Source: Phototrophicaceae bacterium (GTDB lineage: Bacteria > Chloroflexota > Anaerolineae > Aggregatilineales > Phototrophicaceae). Taken from it: 64,000 bases of DNA. The notes under the pieces are model-generated. The model was given only the letters and a program-made list of their open reading frames with translations. It was not told the DNA's origin and ran no database searches. Each line of letters begins with the position of its first letter. The first letter of the stretch is position 1. Location: positions 3,930,302 to 3,994,301 of the forward strand of contig OZ244801.1 of the NCBI GenBank assembly GCA_965219985.1. The letters are read 5' to 3'. A program made the position numbers and the translations under genes. Of the stretch, positions 30,909 through 35,398 are shown in pieces.

Positions 30909-31498
30909 TAGGTTACGGCGCGCTTATCCTGGCGGCGGGCTTGTCCTCGCGCATGGTGGAGAACAAAGTGCTGCTGCCCTGGCGGGACGGCCGGCCGATT
31001 GTGAGGCATGTCGCCGCGTTGTACACAAGCGCCGGCATCGACCCGGTCATCGTCGTGACCGGTCGCGATGCGGCGGAAGTCCGCGCCGCCGTCGCTGAGC
31101 TGCCCGTTCGCTGCGTCCACAATCCCGACTACGCCAGTGGCGAGATGCTGTCGTCAGTGAAAGCTGGTTTAAGCGCGCTGCCTGAGGCGCTGGCCGCCGC
31201 CTTCATTCAGCCGGCCGACATGCCCTGTGTGCCGCAAGATGTCATCAGCGAGCTGGCCGCCGCGCACGAGCCGGGCTGGAATGTCGCGCCGCGCTGCCAG
31301 GGGCGGCGCGGGCATCCGGTGCTGCTGGATCGGGCTTATTGGCGGGCGATGCTGGAGTTGCCGGCGGATGCGCGGCCGAGGGCTGGGCTGCGCGGGTCGC
31401 GGCTGCGGCTGGTGGATGTGGAGGACGCGGGCGTACTGCTGGATCTGGATACGCGGACGGCTTATGAGCGGGTTATTCAAGCGGGAAGCCCGGAATAG
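30899..31498 (+). CDS. MobA-like NTP transferase (molybdenum cofactor cytidylyl/guanylyl-transferase, MocA-like)
   Basis: The conserved start of the family, ALILAAGLSSRM...K, is followed by PVIVVTG and QPADMP. I place the start at the TTG at 30899. The ATG at 30749 would add 50 aa translated from the repeat element. Confidence 0.65.
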   Translation: MRGVGYGALILAAGLSSRMVENKVLLPWRDGRPIVRHVAALYTSAGIDPVIVVTGRDAAEVRAAVAELPVRCVHNPDYASGEMLSSVKAGLSALPEALAAAFIQPADMPCVPQDVISELAAAHEPGWNVAPRCQGRRGHPVLLDRAYWRAMLELPADARPRAGLRGSRLRLVDVEDAGVLLDLDTRTAYERVIQAGSPE

Positions 31499-34445
31499 CG
31501 GCGTCAATCGCGGACATGACGCGAATCGTCTCGGATAAGGCGACCACGATTTTCTGATAGTGTTCTTTTTCGTCCAGGGACAGCTTGCGTCCGCGCCGGT
31601 CTTTCAGCCACTTGCGCGCGACCTGATAACCGCCGATGTGGAAGTCCCAGATCTCTTGCGGCACGCCGCCAAAGTACTGCGCCCTGTTGATGTGGACTTG
31701 CCCGCCCTTTGGCCTGTACTTTGGATAGCCCCGCGCCACCTCATCGTCGCCCTCTGTATCGAAAGTGGTCATGGTGTCGTTCAGCTTGGGCGACTTCATC
31801 AAGTGCAGACTGACCAATTCCGCGCCCAGCTTGACCAGCGTCCCAAACAAGTCCACATCCGCCGTCAGCGGCAAACGGGGAAAGTCGATTTTTAGAAACT
31901 CGGCGTAGCGTTCGCGGTAGGTCGGGCTGTGGAAAACGGCGTAGGCGTAGTAGAAGACGTCTTCTGGCCCGAACCAGTCGGGAGAATCGCCATTGGTGAA
32001 GGCGCTGCCCTCGGTTTCGAAGCGCAGGCCGAGCTTGGCTTCAATCTCGGCTACGAGTTCGCGGCTGAGGTTGGGACGGCGGCCCTTGGCGCTGAGCGGG
32101 AACTCGCTGGCGTCGTCCCCGAGGTCGAACTTGTCCGCGTCGGGGTAGAGGTAGAGCGGGAAAACATATGCGTTATCTTTTGACGAGATTACAGATTTGT
32201 CGGTAATGTGGTCTGCAACCCAAAAATTACCAAACAAGTTGATTCTAGGTCTTCTAAGTGTGATCAAAGCAAGGTTCTCGACTTCGTAAAGATGACGCAT
32301 TATTTCAAATCGAGGACGAGTGATTGTCTCCAAGTCATAGTCAATAAAGCGAATGTCGAAGACTCGATAATGAATCTTATCCTGTTTATGGTGAAGAAAA
32401 CTCACATTTTTCTTTTGAATAGTTATTGCCATACTGTTGGCACTGAAGCACTGCTCAATAGGATAGAATTTAGAATATGAGCTTCTATGTTCTAGGTTAA
32501 TTGGCTTAAACAAGTAATGAGGCTGAGTTGGAATGGGGAGCTGCCAATCTACGTCTCTATAATCATTAAAGTCTAAAAACTTGTACTTTGAATTTCTCTT
32601 GCCTTTCAAATCAAAGTAGAAAACATTGCAATCAATGTTACCCAATTGTTTGACCAAAATTACGATAGAAACACCCTGAACAATATCAAATACGTTTTCA
32701 TCCTTTTGCCCATTGGCAGAGGGAACTGATTTTCGTGAATCTCCGTGAAGATTGAGAATGTAGATGTCGTTGAATGTTGTCATTAGATTCTGCCGCATCC
32801 CGCGAAATGTCGGCGCATCCAAATAACTGTTATTCGTAATAAAAGCCAAGACCCCCTCGCCCGTTTGCTCGATGCGCCACTGCCCAAAGCGAATGAACTT
32901 GACATAATCGTCTTGCAGCCATTTGGGATTCCTTTCGCCGATAGGTTCGCCGTCAACGAAGTAATAGTCGCGCACCAAGTCGCGTATCCATTGCCCTTTG
33001 TTGGCGCTGTGCCCGCTGTAGGGCGGATTGCCCAGCACCACCATAATAGGCTTGTCGCGTTTGATGGCGGCCGCTTCGTTCGCCTCCGCGCTGATGAACT
33101 CAGCGAAGGGCAGCGGCGGAGCTTCCACTGCCTCTTCCAGCGTATTCGTCAGGTAGATGCCCAGGCGCTCGTTCTCTTTGAAGTCGTAGCCGGCCTCTTT
33201 CAGCTGCAAGCCCAGGTTCATGTGGGCGATGGTGTAGGGCGCCATCAGCAGCTCGAAGCCGAATATGCGCGGCAAGAGACGTTCTTCGACATAGCTTTTC
33301 CACAAGCCTCGTTGCCCCTCAAAGCGTTCTTTGATTTGTTCAATCACATAGTAGAGAAAAGTACCCGTGCCGGCGGCCGGGTCAAGGATGAGCGTGTCTT
33401 TGTCGGCGAGTCCAAGCGGTCGGCCAAAGCGGGTTATGAGAATATGGTCGACGCTGCGCACAATATACTTCACGACCGGCTCGGGCGTGTAATAGACGCC
33501 GCGGCGTTCGCGCAGGCTGGGGTTGTAGGCGGCGAGGAAGGTCTCGTAGAAATGCACGACCGGGTCGCTTTGCCCGCTGCGTGTGCCGAAGTGGGCGAGG
33601 ATGCTGTCCATATCGGTGTGACGCAATATCTCCACCAGGCTCTCCGTCAACCAGGACAAACGCCGGCCTAAATCGAAGCGGCTGTGATGAAATAGCTCGC
33701 GCAGGAACGGGTTGCTGCGCGGGATGTCGTCAGCGGCATTGCGCAGGCTGAAGCGCTTGGGATCGCCGAGGTAATGCACCCTCGATGCGAATAAGCCATA
33801 AGCCAGGGTCTGCGCGTACATATCGGCGAAGCTGGCGATATTCAGCCCGGGCAGCAGCGTGCGTTGGAAGGCGGTCATTTGATTTTGCAAATTGGATGTC
33901 GGGCTGTCGCTATTGAGGTCTTTCTCGATGAAATGGGCGATGAGCTGGGCATTGCGCGCCAGTCGCTGCGCCAGTTCTTGGGCGCTGTTGACGGACTGGA
34001 CGCTTTGCTGGCAAAAGCGCTGGAGCATCTCTGTAAGGTCGGCGTAGCCTTTGGGCTCGCGGATGATTTTGCCCGCTCGTAATCTGGCGATTTTGACGCT
34101 GTCAACTTTCTCCGCATTCACATACCAGCGGAATTCCAGATAATTCGTCAGCAGCAAGTTGCCATGCGCTTGATAGCGTTTGATTTGCTGCGTTTTTTCG
34201 GTGCGGCTGAGCGCATTGCCGATGTCTTTCGCTTCCACGATACCTATTGGCACATTGCCCGGTTGGCGCAAAACGACAAAATCCGGCATGCCAATTTCGG
34301 TGCGGGCGGGATCGTTAACAGCGCTCAATCCCGTGTCAGCCGATTCCAGCAGTTGCTTCAAAGCCGGTCGGTAAGCATGTTCGCCAGCCATTCCGGTTCT
34401 AAATTCATCTTGTATGTCGCTGAGATAATCTCTTATCGCGCTCAC
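31473..34445 (-). CDS. Type IIG (MmeI/type IIL-like) bifunctional restriction endonuclease / N6-adenine methyltransferase, 990 aa
   Basis: N-terminal PD-(D/E)xK (MPDFVVL...IGIVEAKD), motif I LDPAAGTGTF, motif IV VLGNPPYSG, and a conserved C-terminal domain (YYAYAVFHSPTYRERYAEFLKIDFPRLP...GGYQVARKWLKDRRGR). GTG start overlapping the upstream stop. Confidence 0.8.
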   Translation of the reverse strand: MSAIRDYLSDIQDEFRTGMAGEHAYRPALKQLLESADTGLSAVNDPARTEIGMPDFVVLRQPGNVPIGIVEAKDIGNALSRTEKTQQIKRYQAHGNLLLTNYLEFRWYVNAEKVDSVKIARLRAGKIIREPKGYADLTEMLQRFCQQSVQSVNSAQELAQRLARNAQLIAHFIEKDLNSDSPTSNLQNQMTAFQRTLLPGLNIASFADMYAQTLAYGLFASRVHYLGDPKRFSLRNAADDIPRSNPFLRELFHHSRFDLGRRLSWLTESLVEILRHTDMDSILAHFGTRSGQSDPVVHFYETFLAAYNPSLRERRGVYYTPEPVVKYIVRSVDHILITRFGRPLGLADKDTLILDPAAGTGTFLYYVIEQIKERFEGQRGLWKSYVEERLLPRIFGFELLMAPYTIAHMNLGLQLKEAGYDFKENERLGIYLTNTLEEAVEAPPLPFAEFISAEANEAAAIKRDKPIMVVLGNPPYSGHSANKGQWIRDLVRDYYFVDGEPIGERNPKWLQDDYVKFIRFGQWRIEQTGEGVLAFITNNSYLDAPTFRGMRQNLMTTFNDIYILNLHGDSRKSVPSANGQKDENVFDIVQGVSIVILVKQLGNIDCNVFYFDLKGKRNSKYKFLDFNDYRDVDWQLPIPTQPHYLFKPINLEHRSSYSKFYPIEQCFSANSMAITIQKKNVSFLHHKQDKIHYRVFDIRFIDYDLETITRPRFEIMRHLYEVENLALITLRRPRINLFGNFWVADHITDKSVISSKDNAYVFPLYLYPDADKFDLGDDASEFPLSAKGRRPNLSRELVAEIEAKLGLRFETEGSAFTNGDSPDWFGPEDVFYYAYAVFHSPTYRERYAEFLKIDFPRLPLTADVDLFGTLVKLGAELVSLHLMKSPKLNDTMTTFDTEGDDEVARGYPKYRPKGGQVHINRAQYFGGVPQEIWDFHIGGYQVARKWLKDRRGRKLSLDEKEHYQKIVVALSETIRVMSAIDAAIPGFPLE

Positions 34446-35398
34446 ATTAGAGCTCCGGATTCGGCTACGACTTCATTCTGATTCAATGTCGCCAGTAAGG
34501 CCGACAGCGCAAGGCTGCGCCCCCGCCCCCACTCCAGTCGCCGCGCCAACACCGACCACAACAGCGAAATCGCCGACTCCCGCAGCGCCACCACCAGCAG
34601 CAGCGCCCCGCCTTCCACGACCGTCCGCAGCAGCGGACCCGGCTCAATAACCGCCCGCCCATACGCCGCCAGCGCCAGTCCGCCGGCCAGCAGCGGCAGG
34701 CTCGTCAGCGCGATATGCAGAAATACGCCGACGGTCATGCCATCAGGGCGCGACCAGTCGAAACTGCTGGCGTAGAGGCCGACCAGCAGGCTCAGCACCA
34801 GCGTCTGCGTCATATTGCTGAAGTAGAGCGCCAGCAGCAGCGCCAGCATCGCCAGCAGCCGTACCTGCTCGATGTCGACCGCCTGCGGCCCAATCAGCGC
34901 TGAAAGCAGGATAAACAGGCTCAGCCCACCCAGCACAGTCGATCCCAGCCGAAATGTCATCAGCGTACCCCAGCGCAGGGGGGTGAACCACGGGCTGCGG
35001 TACAAAATGCCGCCGGCGAAGGACCAGCTGGCTTGCAGCGCGCCGCGGGTTGAGGCGCAGATCAGCTCGTAGGTATGCTGATGCTTTTCGCGGTAAATGC
35101 CGCCGATGACATCGACCATCAGCCGACTGCCCGCCAGGATGACGACAATTGGCAGCATGACCGGCATCAGCACGATCAGCGTGATCATCACGATGGGTAT
35201 CACCAGGACGAGCATCAGCAATTCCGGCGCGTGCAGTAAAGCGGCGACCAGCGCGGGGATGGCGGCCGCAATCAGCGGGCGCGGCAGGCGCATCCCAGGT
35301 TTCGGCGCCGCGGCTTTCCTGATTTCGCTGACCCGGCGGAAGATCGGATCGTCGATGTCCATTGCCGTCAAGCTGCGCCACAAGCGCCGGGACATCAT
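34442..35398 (-). CDS. Polytopic membrane protein (about 7 TM helices), unknown function
   Basis: 318-aa ORF with many hydrophobic helices. Its stop TGA (34442-34444) overlaps the GTG start (34443-34445) of the type IIG gene. Confidence 0.6.
   Translation of the reverse strand: MMSRRLWRSLTAMDIDDPIFRRVSEIRKAAAPKPGMRLPRPLIAAAIPALVAALLHAPELLMLVLVIPIVMITLIVLMPVMLPIVVILAGSRLMVDVIGGIYREKHQHTYELICASTRGALQASWSFAGGILYRSPWFTPLRWGTLMTFRLGSTVLGGLSLFILLSALIGPQAVDIEQVRLLAMLALLLALYFSNMTQTLVLSLLVGLYASSFDWSRPDGMTVGVFLHIALTSLPLLAGGLALAAYGRAVIEPGPLLRTVVEGGALLLVVALRESAISLLWSVLARRLEWGRGRSLALSALLATLNQNEVVAESGALM

What the first reader, a model, noticed from the sequence alone, without database searches (positions are those of the whole stretch)
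32160..32850. Sharp AT-rich cassette inside the type IIG restriction-modification gene (probable swapped specificity module)
**What the sequence shows**
- Single-line hand counts inside 32.2-32.65 kb give about 28-38 % GC.
- Elsewhere in the same ORF the counts are about 55-63 % (lines 31681 and 33421).
- The reading frame stays open across both boundaries.
- The low-GC stretch encodes roughly residues 530-760. This lies between the NPPY methyltransferase core and the conserved C-terminal domain.

**Interpretation**
- In MmeI-like enzymes this is where the target-recognition determinants lie (established knowledge).
- Inference: one gene with two compositional histories suggests that a foreign TRD cassette was recombined into a resident enzyme, changing its recognition sequence.
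Basis: partly seen in the sequence, partly recalled or inferred. Interest (0 to 1): 0.6.

Follow-up and report, generated by a model that had tools for sequence, protein, structure and literature searches.

The report
Swappable AT-rich specificity cassette, restriction enzyme
The AT-rich block is real and encodes the DNA-reading loops of a single-protein restriction-modification enzyme; closely related strains carry unrelated versions of it, an ordinary and already known way for such enzymes to change target, and the low GC is shared by all versions, so it does not mark a recent foreign import.

Summary
Observation confirmed. Window 32150-32850 has 34-43% GC against about 60% around it and is the second-lowest 690-nt stretch of the whole 4.2-Mb genome.

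It lies in frame in a 990-aa gene (31473-34445, minus strand). By sequence and by fold the product is a DrdV-like Type IIL/IIG single-chain restriction-modification enzyme with a Type-ISP-type TRD. It is not an MmeI-family member.

The block encodes residues 532-762. By homology these are recognition loops III-VI.

Three conspecific strains are 95-100% identical in DNA on both sides but unalignable inside. Against one of them the replaced tract matches the AT-rich block. AU tests reject congruent trees. No silent copy, recombinase or flanking repeat was found.

- Every orthologue in the genus has a low-GC middle.
- The closest cassettes are from the same Chloroflexota clade.
- This allele has diverged from two other species' alleles as much as the backbone has.
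- Synonymous changes show the cassettes at an AT-rich equilibrium rather than ameliorating.

The scan has noted this pattern before in at least 19 other genomes. This is a new member of a known kind.

The parts
31473..34445 (-). Gene for a 990-aa single-chain Type IIL/IIG restriction-modification enzyme (DrdV-like): nuclease, helical connector, gamma-class N6-adenine methyltransferase and TRD. GTG start.
   Evidence: - ORF and translation.
- Pfam N6_Mtase at residues 293-509 and Type_ISP_C at 677-978, E 1e-74.
- PADLOC REase_MTase_IIG, E 3e-262.
- The family profile aligns to DrdV 5-979, E 2.5e-87.
- AF2 model with pLDDT 86; top Foldseek hit is DrdV 7LO5, E 1e-43.
34056..34445 (-). N-terminal PD-(D/E)xK nuclease domain (residues about 1-130). 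The motif is P54-D55 ... E71-A72-K73, at window 34227-34286.
   Evidence: - P54 is invariant, and D55, E71, A72 and K73 are at least 90% conserved in 71 homologues.
- The motif aligns to the PD...ExK of DrdV.
- The model shows a beta-rich fold here.
- The domain ends are read from the model's secondary structure and are approximate.
32496..33563 (-). Methyltransferase domain (residues about 295-650). NPPY is at residues 473-476 (window 33018-33029).
   Evidence: - Aligns to DrdV MTase 295-635 and LlaBIII 845-1173.
- DrdV domain limits come from bioRxiv 10.1101/2021.01.06.425610.
- Motif positions.
32160..32850 (-). AT-rich hypervariable specificity cassette (residues 532-762): the last part of the MTase domain, with recognition loop III, plus the core of the TRD, with loops IV-VI. 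It is bounded by the conserved motifs AFITNxSYLD..FRGMR and VFPLYLYP.
   Evidence: - GC 0.34-0.43; GC3 36-44%.
- Family conservation dips at residues 570-780.
- DNA identity to conspecific L001 falls from 95-100% to 36-60% between residues about 540 and 745.
- Loop positions are by homology with LlaGI/LlaBIII (PMC4872093; alignments; positions).
32670..32750 (-). Predicted recognition loop III (residues 566-592, LHGDSRKSVPSANGQKDENVFDIVQGV).
   Evidence: - Aligned to the LlaBIII/LlaGI loop III region.
- Differs between conspecific alleles.
- The assignment is by homology, not tested.
32145..32438 (-). Predicted TRD loops IV (residues about 670-684), V (about 700-720) and VI (744-767). Loop VI aligns to the DrdV base-contact residues D803/K807.
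   Evidence: - Profile alignments to DrdV and LlaBIII.
- Contact residues named.
- Allele comparison.
- The assignment is by homology, not tested.
31476..31973 (-). Conserved C-terminal part of the TRD (residues about 825-990), equivalent to the Type ISP 'guide' subdomain that steers DNA but does not read bases. GC is normal here.
   Evidence: - Aligned to LlaBIII 1404-1515.
- The guide subdomain is described in PMC4872093.
- 94-100% identical to conspecific strains.
34442..35398 (-). Upstream 318-aa polytopic membrane protein gene. Its stop overlaps the RM start by 4 nt. It is conserved next to the RM gene in all six syntenic loci fetched. A functional link has not been shown.
   Evidence: - Translation.
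- Synteny.
- No Pfam record in the contig tables, and no PADLOC hit.

Best explanation
**What the gene is.** It encodes a DrdV-like Type IIL/IIG enzyme. One polypeptide carries a PD-ExK nuclease, a gamma-class adenine methyltransferase and a Type-ISP-type TRD. By analogy with DrdV and LlaGI/LlaBIII (inference), the MTase and TRD clamp an asymmetric 6-7 bp site. They flip one adenine for methylation, and the nuclease cuts unmethylated DNA nearby.

**What the AT-rich block is.** It is the hypervariable cassette that encodes the base-reading loops III-VI.

**How it varies.** In the population of this Chloroflexota (Anaerolineae-like) genus the cassette exists as many deeply diverged alleles. Homologous recombination anchored in the conserved flanks exchanges them, with breakpoints that differ from strain to strain. 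One event therefore changes methylation and cleavage specificity together.

**Why it is AT-rich.** Low GC is a standing property of the whole allele pool, not a trace of a recent donor. The cassettes sit at an AT-rich synonymous-site equilibrium close to what the local mutation bias would give. The frequently recombining flanks are held GC-rich.

**Shown:** composition, domain identity, mosaicism, tree incongruence, absence of a programmed switching apparatus, and the equilibrium counts.

**Inferred:** enzymatic activity, that the alleles differ in recognition sequence, and the cause of the AT equilibrium.
For: Enzyme identity.

Mosaicism:
- Proteins P0003, P0007 and P0008 are 94-100% identical at residues 1-525 and 826-990 but 30-50% identical at 550-750.
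- The loci are syntenic.
- The 6-kb flanks are 95-99% identical in DNA to L001 and L002.
- The codon-level identity profile gives different breakpoints for each strain:
  - L001: residues about 540 to 745
  - L002: residues about 440 to 800
  - L029: residues about 460 to 830

Tree incongruence:
- The N and C trees hold {WIN, P0003, P0008} with support 100 and 96.
- The M (cassette) tree rejects that clade (p-AU 7e-12) and holds {WIN, P0004, P0005}. N and C reject that grouping.

Family-wide pattern:
- Flank identity and cassette identity are uncorrelated (r = 0.07).
- All 15 pairs with flanks at least 90% identical have cassettes only 29-52% identical.

Low GC in every allele:
-.
- The same dip occurs in two other single-chain RM genes of this genome.

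No recent import:
- Nearest cassettes are from the same clade.
- Fourfold-site divergence of the cassette is at least that of the backbone.

Compositional equilibrium:
- Cassette: S>W (G/C to A/T) 87 of 159 sites and W>S (A/T to G/C) 78 of 197 sites, implying GC3 0.42 against 0.45 now.
- N part: implied 0.62 against 0.75 now. Fisher tests give p = 4e-4 and 7e-6.
- Recent singletons in conspecific flanks imply an equilibrium GC of 0.43.

No programmed switch:
- No second copy of the cassette in the genome, by protein or by DNA.
- No flanking repeats.
Against: - No biochemical or methylome data exist. That the alleles recognise different sequences is inferred from 30-50% identity in the loop regions and a 47-aa insertion difference.
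- The protein database is clustered at 90% identity. Pairs with the same backbone and the same cassette are therefore merged, and "close backbones always differ in cassette" is partly a sampling effect.
- The groups for the AU tests were named after the identity tables had been seen.
- The polarised counts use three-taxon parsimony at fairly saturated sites (0.4-0.75 differences) and only 356 cassette codons. The known parsimony bias works against the contrast seen, but the numbers are modest.
- The genome and most relatives are metagenome assemblies.
Confidence: 0.85

Rival explanations
1. One reading: a single recent recombination brought a TRD cassette from a foreign, low-GC donor lineage into a resident GC-rich enzyme, and the low GC is the donor's signature, not yet ameliorated.
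For: - One boundary is sharp, and GC3 drops to 36-44% in a gene whose other parts have GC3 of 70-88%.
- Conspecific strains carry other cassettes.
- In some other phyla the family also shows modules of very different GC. In Algoriphagus (L034) GC3 is 0.67, 0.17 and 0.33 for the three parts.
Against: - All orthologues in the genus have the dip with different cassettes.
- The closest cassettes in 5.8 billion proteins are from the same Chloroflexota clade (72-74%), and other phyla reach at most 42%.
- Synonymous divergence from the L003/L031 cassettes equals or exceeds that of the backbone.
- There is no excess of AT-to-GC synonymous changes.
Confidence: 0.08
2. Programmed diversification inside the cell, by a shufflon or invertible cassette system, phase variation, or a diversity-generating retroelement acting on the TRD.
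For: The variable zone is confined to the DNA-reading part, as in phase-variable Type I hsdS systems (established knowledge).
Against: - No second copy or silent cassette in the 4.2-Mb genome, by protein or by DNA.
- No inverted or direct repeats bound the block.
- No recombinase or reverse transcriptase among the called genes of the syntenic loci.
- Alleles differ by 50-70% of residues and by indels, not by adenine-specific point changes.
Confidence: 0.02
3. The dip reflects only protein-level constraint or fast in-place divergence (an N/K/I/F-rich fold) without any exchange of segments.
For: - The cassette is enriched in F, I, N and K (31% against 19%) and depleted in G, A, R and P.
- The region is the least conserved part of the family.
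Against: - GC3 at synonymous sites drops as well.
- Conspecific strains with 0.04-0.13 fourfold-site differences in the flanks have 0.53-0.75 in the cassette.
- Trees are significantly incongruent.
- Breakpoints are discrete.
Confidence: 0.03
4. Assembly chimera: the metagenome assembler joined the backbone of one strain to the cassette of a co-occurring strain.
For: - Several alleles of the same species occur in samples of one project.
- The genome is a metagenome-type single contig.
Against: - The frame is intact.
- Six independent assemblies show the same architecture.
- The cassette is only 0.7 kb.
- The population-level conclusion does not depend on this one pairing.
- A check with reads was not possible.
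Confidence: 0.03

Closest known systems
DrdV (Type IIL single-chain RM enzyme, PDB 7LO5/7LVV; bioRxiv 10.1101/2021.01.06.425610)
   Same: - Same length class (1029 aa against 990 aa).
- Same order of domains: PD-ExK nuclease, helical connector, gamma N6A MTase, TRD.
- The family profile aligns over DrdV 5-979, E 2.5e-87.
- Best fold match, E 1e-43.
   Different: - Only about 18% identity in the fold alignment.
- The recognition sequence here is unknown.
- The window's cassette type lacks a stretch of about 47 aa in the TRD core that the L001 and L002 alleles carry.
[quoted passage not shown]
   Same: - Homologous MTase-TRD unit (Pfam Type_ISP_C 1e-74).
[quoted passage not shown] PMC4872093 states this for the family. 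The abstract of PMC3553950 reports more than 95% homology across the first three domains of LlaBIII.
   Different: - No SF2 helicase-like ATPase or coupler domains. The protein is 990 aa against 1578 aa.
- It is therefore not a translocating Type ISP enzyme.
Allelic diversity or replacement of the TRD in Type IIG genes of closely related genomes (Furuta, Abe and Kobayashi 2010, PMC2853133; 'domain movement', PMC3077401, PMC3983042)
   Same: Closely related genomes share the flanks and most of the gene but have unalignable putative recognition regions at one locus. These papers read this as a change of specificity by recombination.
   Different: - Those cases are from Campylobacter, Streptococcus and Helicobacter, which are low-GC hosts where no compositional contrast is visible.
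- Here the host is 59% GC, so the cassette stands out.
- Its compositional equilibrium could be measured.
MmeI family (Type IIL; PDB 5HR4)
   Same: The same general single-chain architecture, with one TRD serving both activities.
   Different: - Pfam MmeI_Mtase scores 19.9, below the cut-off of 27.
- No other MmeI domain models match.
- The fold match is only rank 40, E 1e-11.

Membership tests
DrdV-like Type IIL/IIG single-chain RM enzymes | N-terminal PD-(D/E)xK nuclease domain | tested here: met
   - P54-D55...E71-x-K73 are at least 90% conserved in 71 homologues.
- The motif aligns to the PD...ExK of DrdV.
- Catalysis was not assayed.
DrdV-like Type IIL/IIG single-chain RM enzymes | Gamma-class N6-adenine methyltransferase with NPPY and a SAM-binding motif in the same polypeptide | tested here: met
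   - N6_Mtase, E 3.8e-15.
- N473-P474-P475-Y476 are invariant, as is the D355/A357/G359/T360 motif.
DrdV-like Type IIL/IIG single-chain RM enzymes | C-terminal TRD homologous to the Type ISP / DrdV TRD | tested here: met
   - Type_ISP_C, E 1.1e-74.
- The profile aligns through DrdV residue 979.
DrdV-like Type IIL/IIG single-chain RM enzymes | Cleavage at a fixed distance from an asymmetric site, with methylation of one strand | not testable with these tools
   Needs the purified enzyme or a methylome.
Type ISP RM enzymes | SF2 helicase-like ATPase and coupler between the nuclease and the MTase | tested here: not met
   - The protein is 990 aa.
- No helicase domain in Pfam.
- Alignment to LlaBIII starts only at residue 752 of LlaBIII.
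MmeI family | Matches to the MmeI domain models at or above the gathering score | tested here: not met
   - MmeI_Mtase scores 19.9 bits against a cut-off of 27.
- No other MmeI-specific model is among the four Pfam families matched.
- MmeI is rank 40 by fold.
Allelic TRD replacement by homologous recombination (Furuta et al. 2010 type) | Same locus, near-identical flanks and gene ends in close relatives, unalignable recognition region | tested here: met
Allelic TRD replacement by homologous recombination (Furuta et al. 2010 type) | Significantly incongruent phylogenies of the cassette and the backbone | tested here: met
   AU tests give p = 7e-12, 5e-115 and 3e-5. The groups were chosen after the identity tables had been seen.
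Allelic TRD replacement by homologous recombination (Furuta et al. 2010 type) | Alleles confer different recognition sequences | not testable with these tools
   - The loops differ.
Phase-variable / shufflon specificity switching | Silent cassettes, inverted repeats and a site-specific recombinase at the locus | tested here: not met
   and the gene tables.
Diversity-generating retroelement target | A template repeat homologous to the variable region, plus a reverse transcriptase | tested here: not met
   - No second copy of the block in the genome.
- Alleles differ by indels and by all kinds of substitution.

The most novel reading that the evidence does not exclude
The AT-richness of specificity cassettes may be a stable equilibrium rather than a fossil of foreign origin. 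The alleles are too diverged to form heteroduplex with one another. The cassette interior would then be shut out of the homologous recombination that sweeps the conserved flanks, and so out of GC-biased gene conversion or whatever recombination-linked force keeps this genome at GC3 of about 75-80%. It would relax to the mutational equilibrium, about 0.42 GC.

If so, RM specificity cassettes in GC-rich genomes are a built-in within-gene control for measuring gBGC against mutation bias in bacteria. The scan has noted such cassettes in at least 19 genomes, and three genes of this genome show them. It would also explain why swapped TRDs look low-GC so regularly.
Probability: 0.3. Interest if true: 0.55.

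Novelty: new member of a known kind. Interest (0 to 1): 0.3.

Why it matters
**As an annotation.** The gene is a DrdV-like Type IIL enzyme whose target specificity is strain-specific in an uncultured Chloroflexota lineage. This bears on phage-host matching and on barriers to gene flow between co-occurring strains.

**As biology.** The event type is textbook (TRD exchange), so it carries little surprise.

**The one point of wider use.** A low-GC TRD is usually read as "foreign DNA". Here the same dip is present in every allele of the genus and in two unrelated RM genes of the same genome. Synonymous-site counts put the cassettes at compositional equilibrium. Intragenic low GC in specificity modules should therefore not be taken by itself as evidence of a recent import from an AT-rich donor.

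Tried and rejected
1. **Foreign-phylum donor.** A search with residues 560-790 alone found the closest cassettes in the same clade. Rejected.
2. **Silent cassette or paralogous donor in the same genome.** Protein and DNA searches of the genome found only the gene itself, plus a 31%-identical Type ISP-like paralogue. Rejected.
3. **Repeats or recombination sites at the block edges.** Only short chance-level matches.
4. **Embedded RNA element.** No Rfam match at E <= 0.1.
5. **Internal promoter or terminator.** Counts are no higher than in shuffles.
6. **MmeI or Type ISP membership.** A defining feature was not met in each case.
8. **A universal rule that the middle of this family is low-GC.** Only partly true outside Chloroflexota. 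Some Poribacteria, Bdellovibrio and Alphaproteobacteria members show no dip.
9. **First MAFFT run.** It timed out and was repeated with faster settings.
Full report
**1.

- Sliding 150-nt windows give GC 0.34-0.43 between 32150 and 32824. The values are 0.57-0.67 just below and 0.54-0.62 from 32900 upward. The 64-kb window averages about 0.60.
- The low-coordinate edge (about 32160-32220) is sharp. The other edge is a gradient over about 250 nt.
- In the whole 4,203,750-bp genome, the 690-nt stretch of the finding has GC 0.371 against a mean of 0.594 (sd 0.044). Only 1e-5 of all such windows are as low, and one other locus is lower.
- The block lies inside one open frame, 31473..34445 on the minus strand, 990 aa. 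It corresponds to residues 532-762.
- Third-position GC falls from 70-88% to 36-44%. The cassette is also enriched in F, I, N and K and depleted in G, A, R and P.

**2. What the gene is**

- Pfam finds N6_Mtase (residues 293-509) and Type_ISP_C (677-978, E 1e-74). MmeI_Mtase is below its cut-off.
- PADLOC calls the protein REase_MTase_IIG (E 3e-262).
- PDB sequence hits are LlaBIII, DrdV and LlaGI.
- A profile of 71 homologues aligns to DrdV over residues 5-979 (E 2.5e-87), including the N-terminal PD...ExK nuclease.
- P54, D55, E71, A72, K73 and NPPY 473-476 are invariant or at least 90% conserved.
- An AlphaFold2 model (pLDDT 86.4) matches DrdV best (E 1e-43), then LlaBIII and LlaGI. MmeI is rank 40.
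- There is no helicase domain.

The enzyme is therefore a DrdV-like Type IIL/IIG single-chain RM enzyme carrying the MTase-TRD unit it shares with Type ISP enzymes. It is not an MmeI-family member.

**3. What the AT-rich block encodes**

- DrdV has its MTase at 295-635 and its TRD at 636-1029.
- Kulkarni et al. (PMC4872093) place the base-reading elements of LlaGI in MTase loops I-III and TRD loops IV-VI. They note that the C-terminal 'guide' subdomain does not read bases.
- By the alignments, the loops map as follows:

| Loop | Residues here | In the AT-rich block? |
|---|---|---|
| I and II | about 477-515 | No (conserved, GC-normal) |
| III | 566-592 | Yes |
| IV | about 670-684 | Yes |
| V | about 700-720 | Yes |
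| VI | 744-767 | Residues 744-762 inside; 763-767 just past the edge |

- Loop VI aligns to DrdV base contacts D803/K807.
- Conservation among 36 close homologues dips exactly at residues 570-780.
- These loop assignments are by homology and were not tested.

**4. The cassette is exchanged between strains**

- The organism is an Anaerolineae-like Chloroflexota.
- Six loci fetched from public assemblies are syntenic. The gene order is hydrolase, ABC transporter, 318-aa membrane protein, RM gene, then molybdo-enzyme maturation genes.
- Three of the loci (L001, L002, L029) are conspecific. The 6-kb flanks are 95-99% identical in DNA to L001 and L002.
- Their proteins are 94-100% identical at residues 1-525 and 826-990 but 30-50% identical at 550-750.
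- Codon-level identity gives these breakpoints:
  - L001: residues about 540 and 745 (window about 32830 and 32200), matching the AT-rich block.
  - L002: residues about 440 and 800.
  - L029: residues about 460 and 830.
  - Further short diverged patches occur elsewhere.
- L001 and L002 also carry a 47-aa insertion in the TRD core.
- In trees of 30 homologues:
  - The N and C segments hold {window, P0003, P0008} with support 100 and 96.
  - The cassette tree rejects that clade (p-AU 7e-12). It holds {window, P0004, P0005}, which N (5e-115) and C (3e-5) reject.
  - The groups were named after the identity tables had been seen.
- Across 36 homologues, flank and cassette identities are uncorrelated (r = 0.07). 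All 15 pairs with flanks at least 90% identical have cassettes 29-52% identical. The database's 90% clustering inflates this result.
- There is no silent copy, no bounding repeat and no recombinase in the neighbourhood. Ordinary homologous recombination in the conserved flanks is the likely mechanism.

**5. The low GC is not a donor's fingerprint**

1. Every orthologue examined has the same GC3 dip with a different cassette. This covers six syntenic loci and eleven species of the genus.
2. A search with the cassette alone finds its nearest relatives in the same clade (P0004 74%, P0005 72%, P0006 60%). Nothing above 42% comes from other phyla.
3. Fourfold-site differences between the window and L003/L031 are 0.41-0.44 in the N part, 0.50-0.53 in the cassette and 0.33-0.46 in the C part. 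This allele has therefore been diverging from theirs at least as long as the backbones have. Which conspecific strain was the recipient cannot be decided.
4. Three-taxon polarised synonymous changes in three cassette types:

| Segment | S>W (G/C to A/T) | W>S (A/T to G/C) | Implied equilibrium GC3 | GC3 now |
|---|---|---|---|---|
| Cassette | 87 of 159 | 78 of 197 | 0.42 | 0.45 |
| N part | 280 of 793 | 151 of 267 | 0.62 | 0.75 |
| C part | 47 of 161 | 27 of 47 | 0.66 | 0.77 |

   Both rates differ between the cassette and the N part (Fisher p = 7e-6 and 4e-4). Parsimony bias would act against this contrast. The cassettes are not ameliorating.
5. Derived singletons among the conspecific flanks are AT-biased (S>W 120, W>S 57) and imply an equilibrium GC of 0.43. 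This is close to the cassette's composition.
6. Two other single-chain RM genes of the same genome show the same sharply bounded dip in the TRD region. They are an Eco57I/TaqI_C type and a Type ISP-like 1610-aa gene.
7. Outside Chloroflexota the family shows the dip often but not always.

A plausible but untested cause is that the diverged cassette interiors are excluded from the recombination-linked GC-raising force that acts on the flanks.

**6. Comparison with what is known**

- Allelic TRD diversity in Type IIG genes of close relatives was described by Furuta et al. 2010 (PMC2853133).
- The description was extended as 'domain movement' (PMC3077401, PMC3983042).
- LlaGI and LlaBIII are the classic Type ISP pair with near-identical N-terminal domains and a different TRD (PMC3553950).
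- This scan has already recorded low-GC specificity cassettes in at least 19 other genomes. These include a DrdV-like case and a marine Chloroflexota case in which the low GC was also assigned to the family's module pool.
- The present case is a clean new member of a known kind.

**7. Limits**

- No enzymology or methylome is available.
- Most sequences are metagenome assemblies.
- The equilibrium test rests on a few hundred codons.

Noticed in passing
G000:C1:3120711-3123734 (+), outside the window: A second single-chain Type IIG gene (Eco57I + TaqI_C domains, about 1000 aa) has the same intragenic pattern. GC3 is 66-94% for aa 1-600, 34-48% for aa 600-950, and 78% at the end.
   Followed up: partly
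G000:C1:1286454-1291283 (-), outside the window: A Type ISP-like 1610-aa paralogue is 31% identical to this gene in the MTase domain. It also has a GC3 dip (44-54%) over aa about 1050-1400, returning to 80% in the C-terminal part.
   Followed up: partly
whole genome G000: Only 11 places in 4.2 Mb have 690-nt GC <= 0.42. Ten lie under an ORF; seven of those were scanned in Pfam. Six matched defence-type families: FRG domain twice, EcoRV endonuclease, DUF4435, AAA_21/AAA_15 and the Eco57I-type IIG gene; one had no match. Two unscanned ORFs look like a third FRG protein and a second AAA ATPase. One holds only short unscanned ORFs. The eleventh is this block.
   Followed up: partly
window 34442-35398 (-): A 318-aa polytopic membrane protein whose stop overlaps the RM start by 4 nt. 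It is present directly upstream of the RM gene in all six syntenic loci. It has no Pfam record in the contig tables and no PADLOC hit. It may be a partner of the RM enzyme or may only share an operon with it.
   Followed up: partly
window 31476-31955 (residues 830-990) and homologues P0015, P0025, P0049, P0052: The C-terminal 'guide' segment also has its own history. Some homologues with 75-78% identity in the N part are 87-91% identical in the C part. Short diverged patches occur at residues 261-300 and 801-830 against L001 and L029. The whole gene is a recombination mosaic, not only the cassette.
   Followed up: no
L034 (Algoriphagus terrigena DSM 22685, NZ_AUBW01000003.1): A family member with extreme module composition in a genome region of 47% GC. 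GC3 is 0.67 in the N part, 0.17 in the middle and 0.33 in the C part.
   Followed up: no
L001 and L002, TRD core (aligned between window residues about 684 and 690): The cassette alleles of two conspecific strains carry a 47-aa insertion (…AIWDTATRFVDLGIETARDFYNLGKDARDWKVHLAQADIRESGP…). It is absent from the window-type cassette and may be an extra subdomain.
   Followed up: no
L003 11941-13082: In the related species, an IS (rve integrase plus HTH_Tnp_1) is inserted between the XdhC-like and CoxE-like genes of the otherwise syntenic neighbourhood.
   Followed up: no
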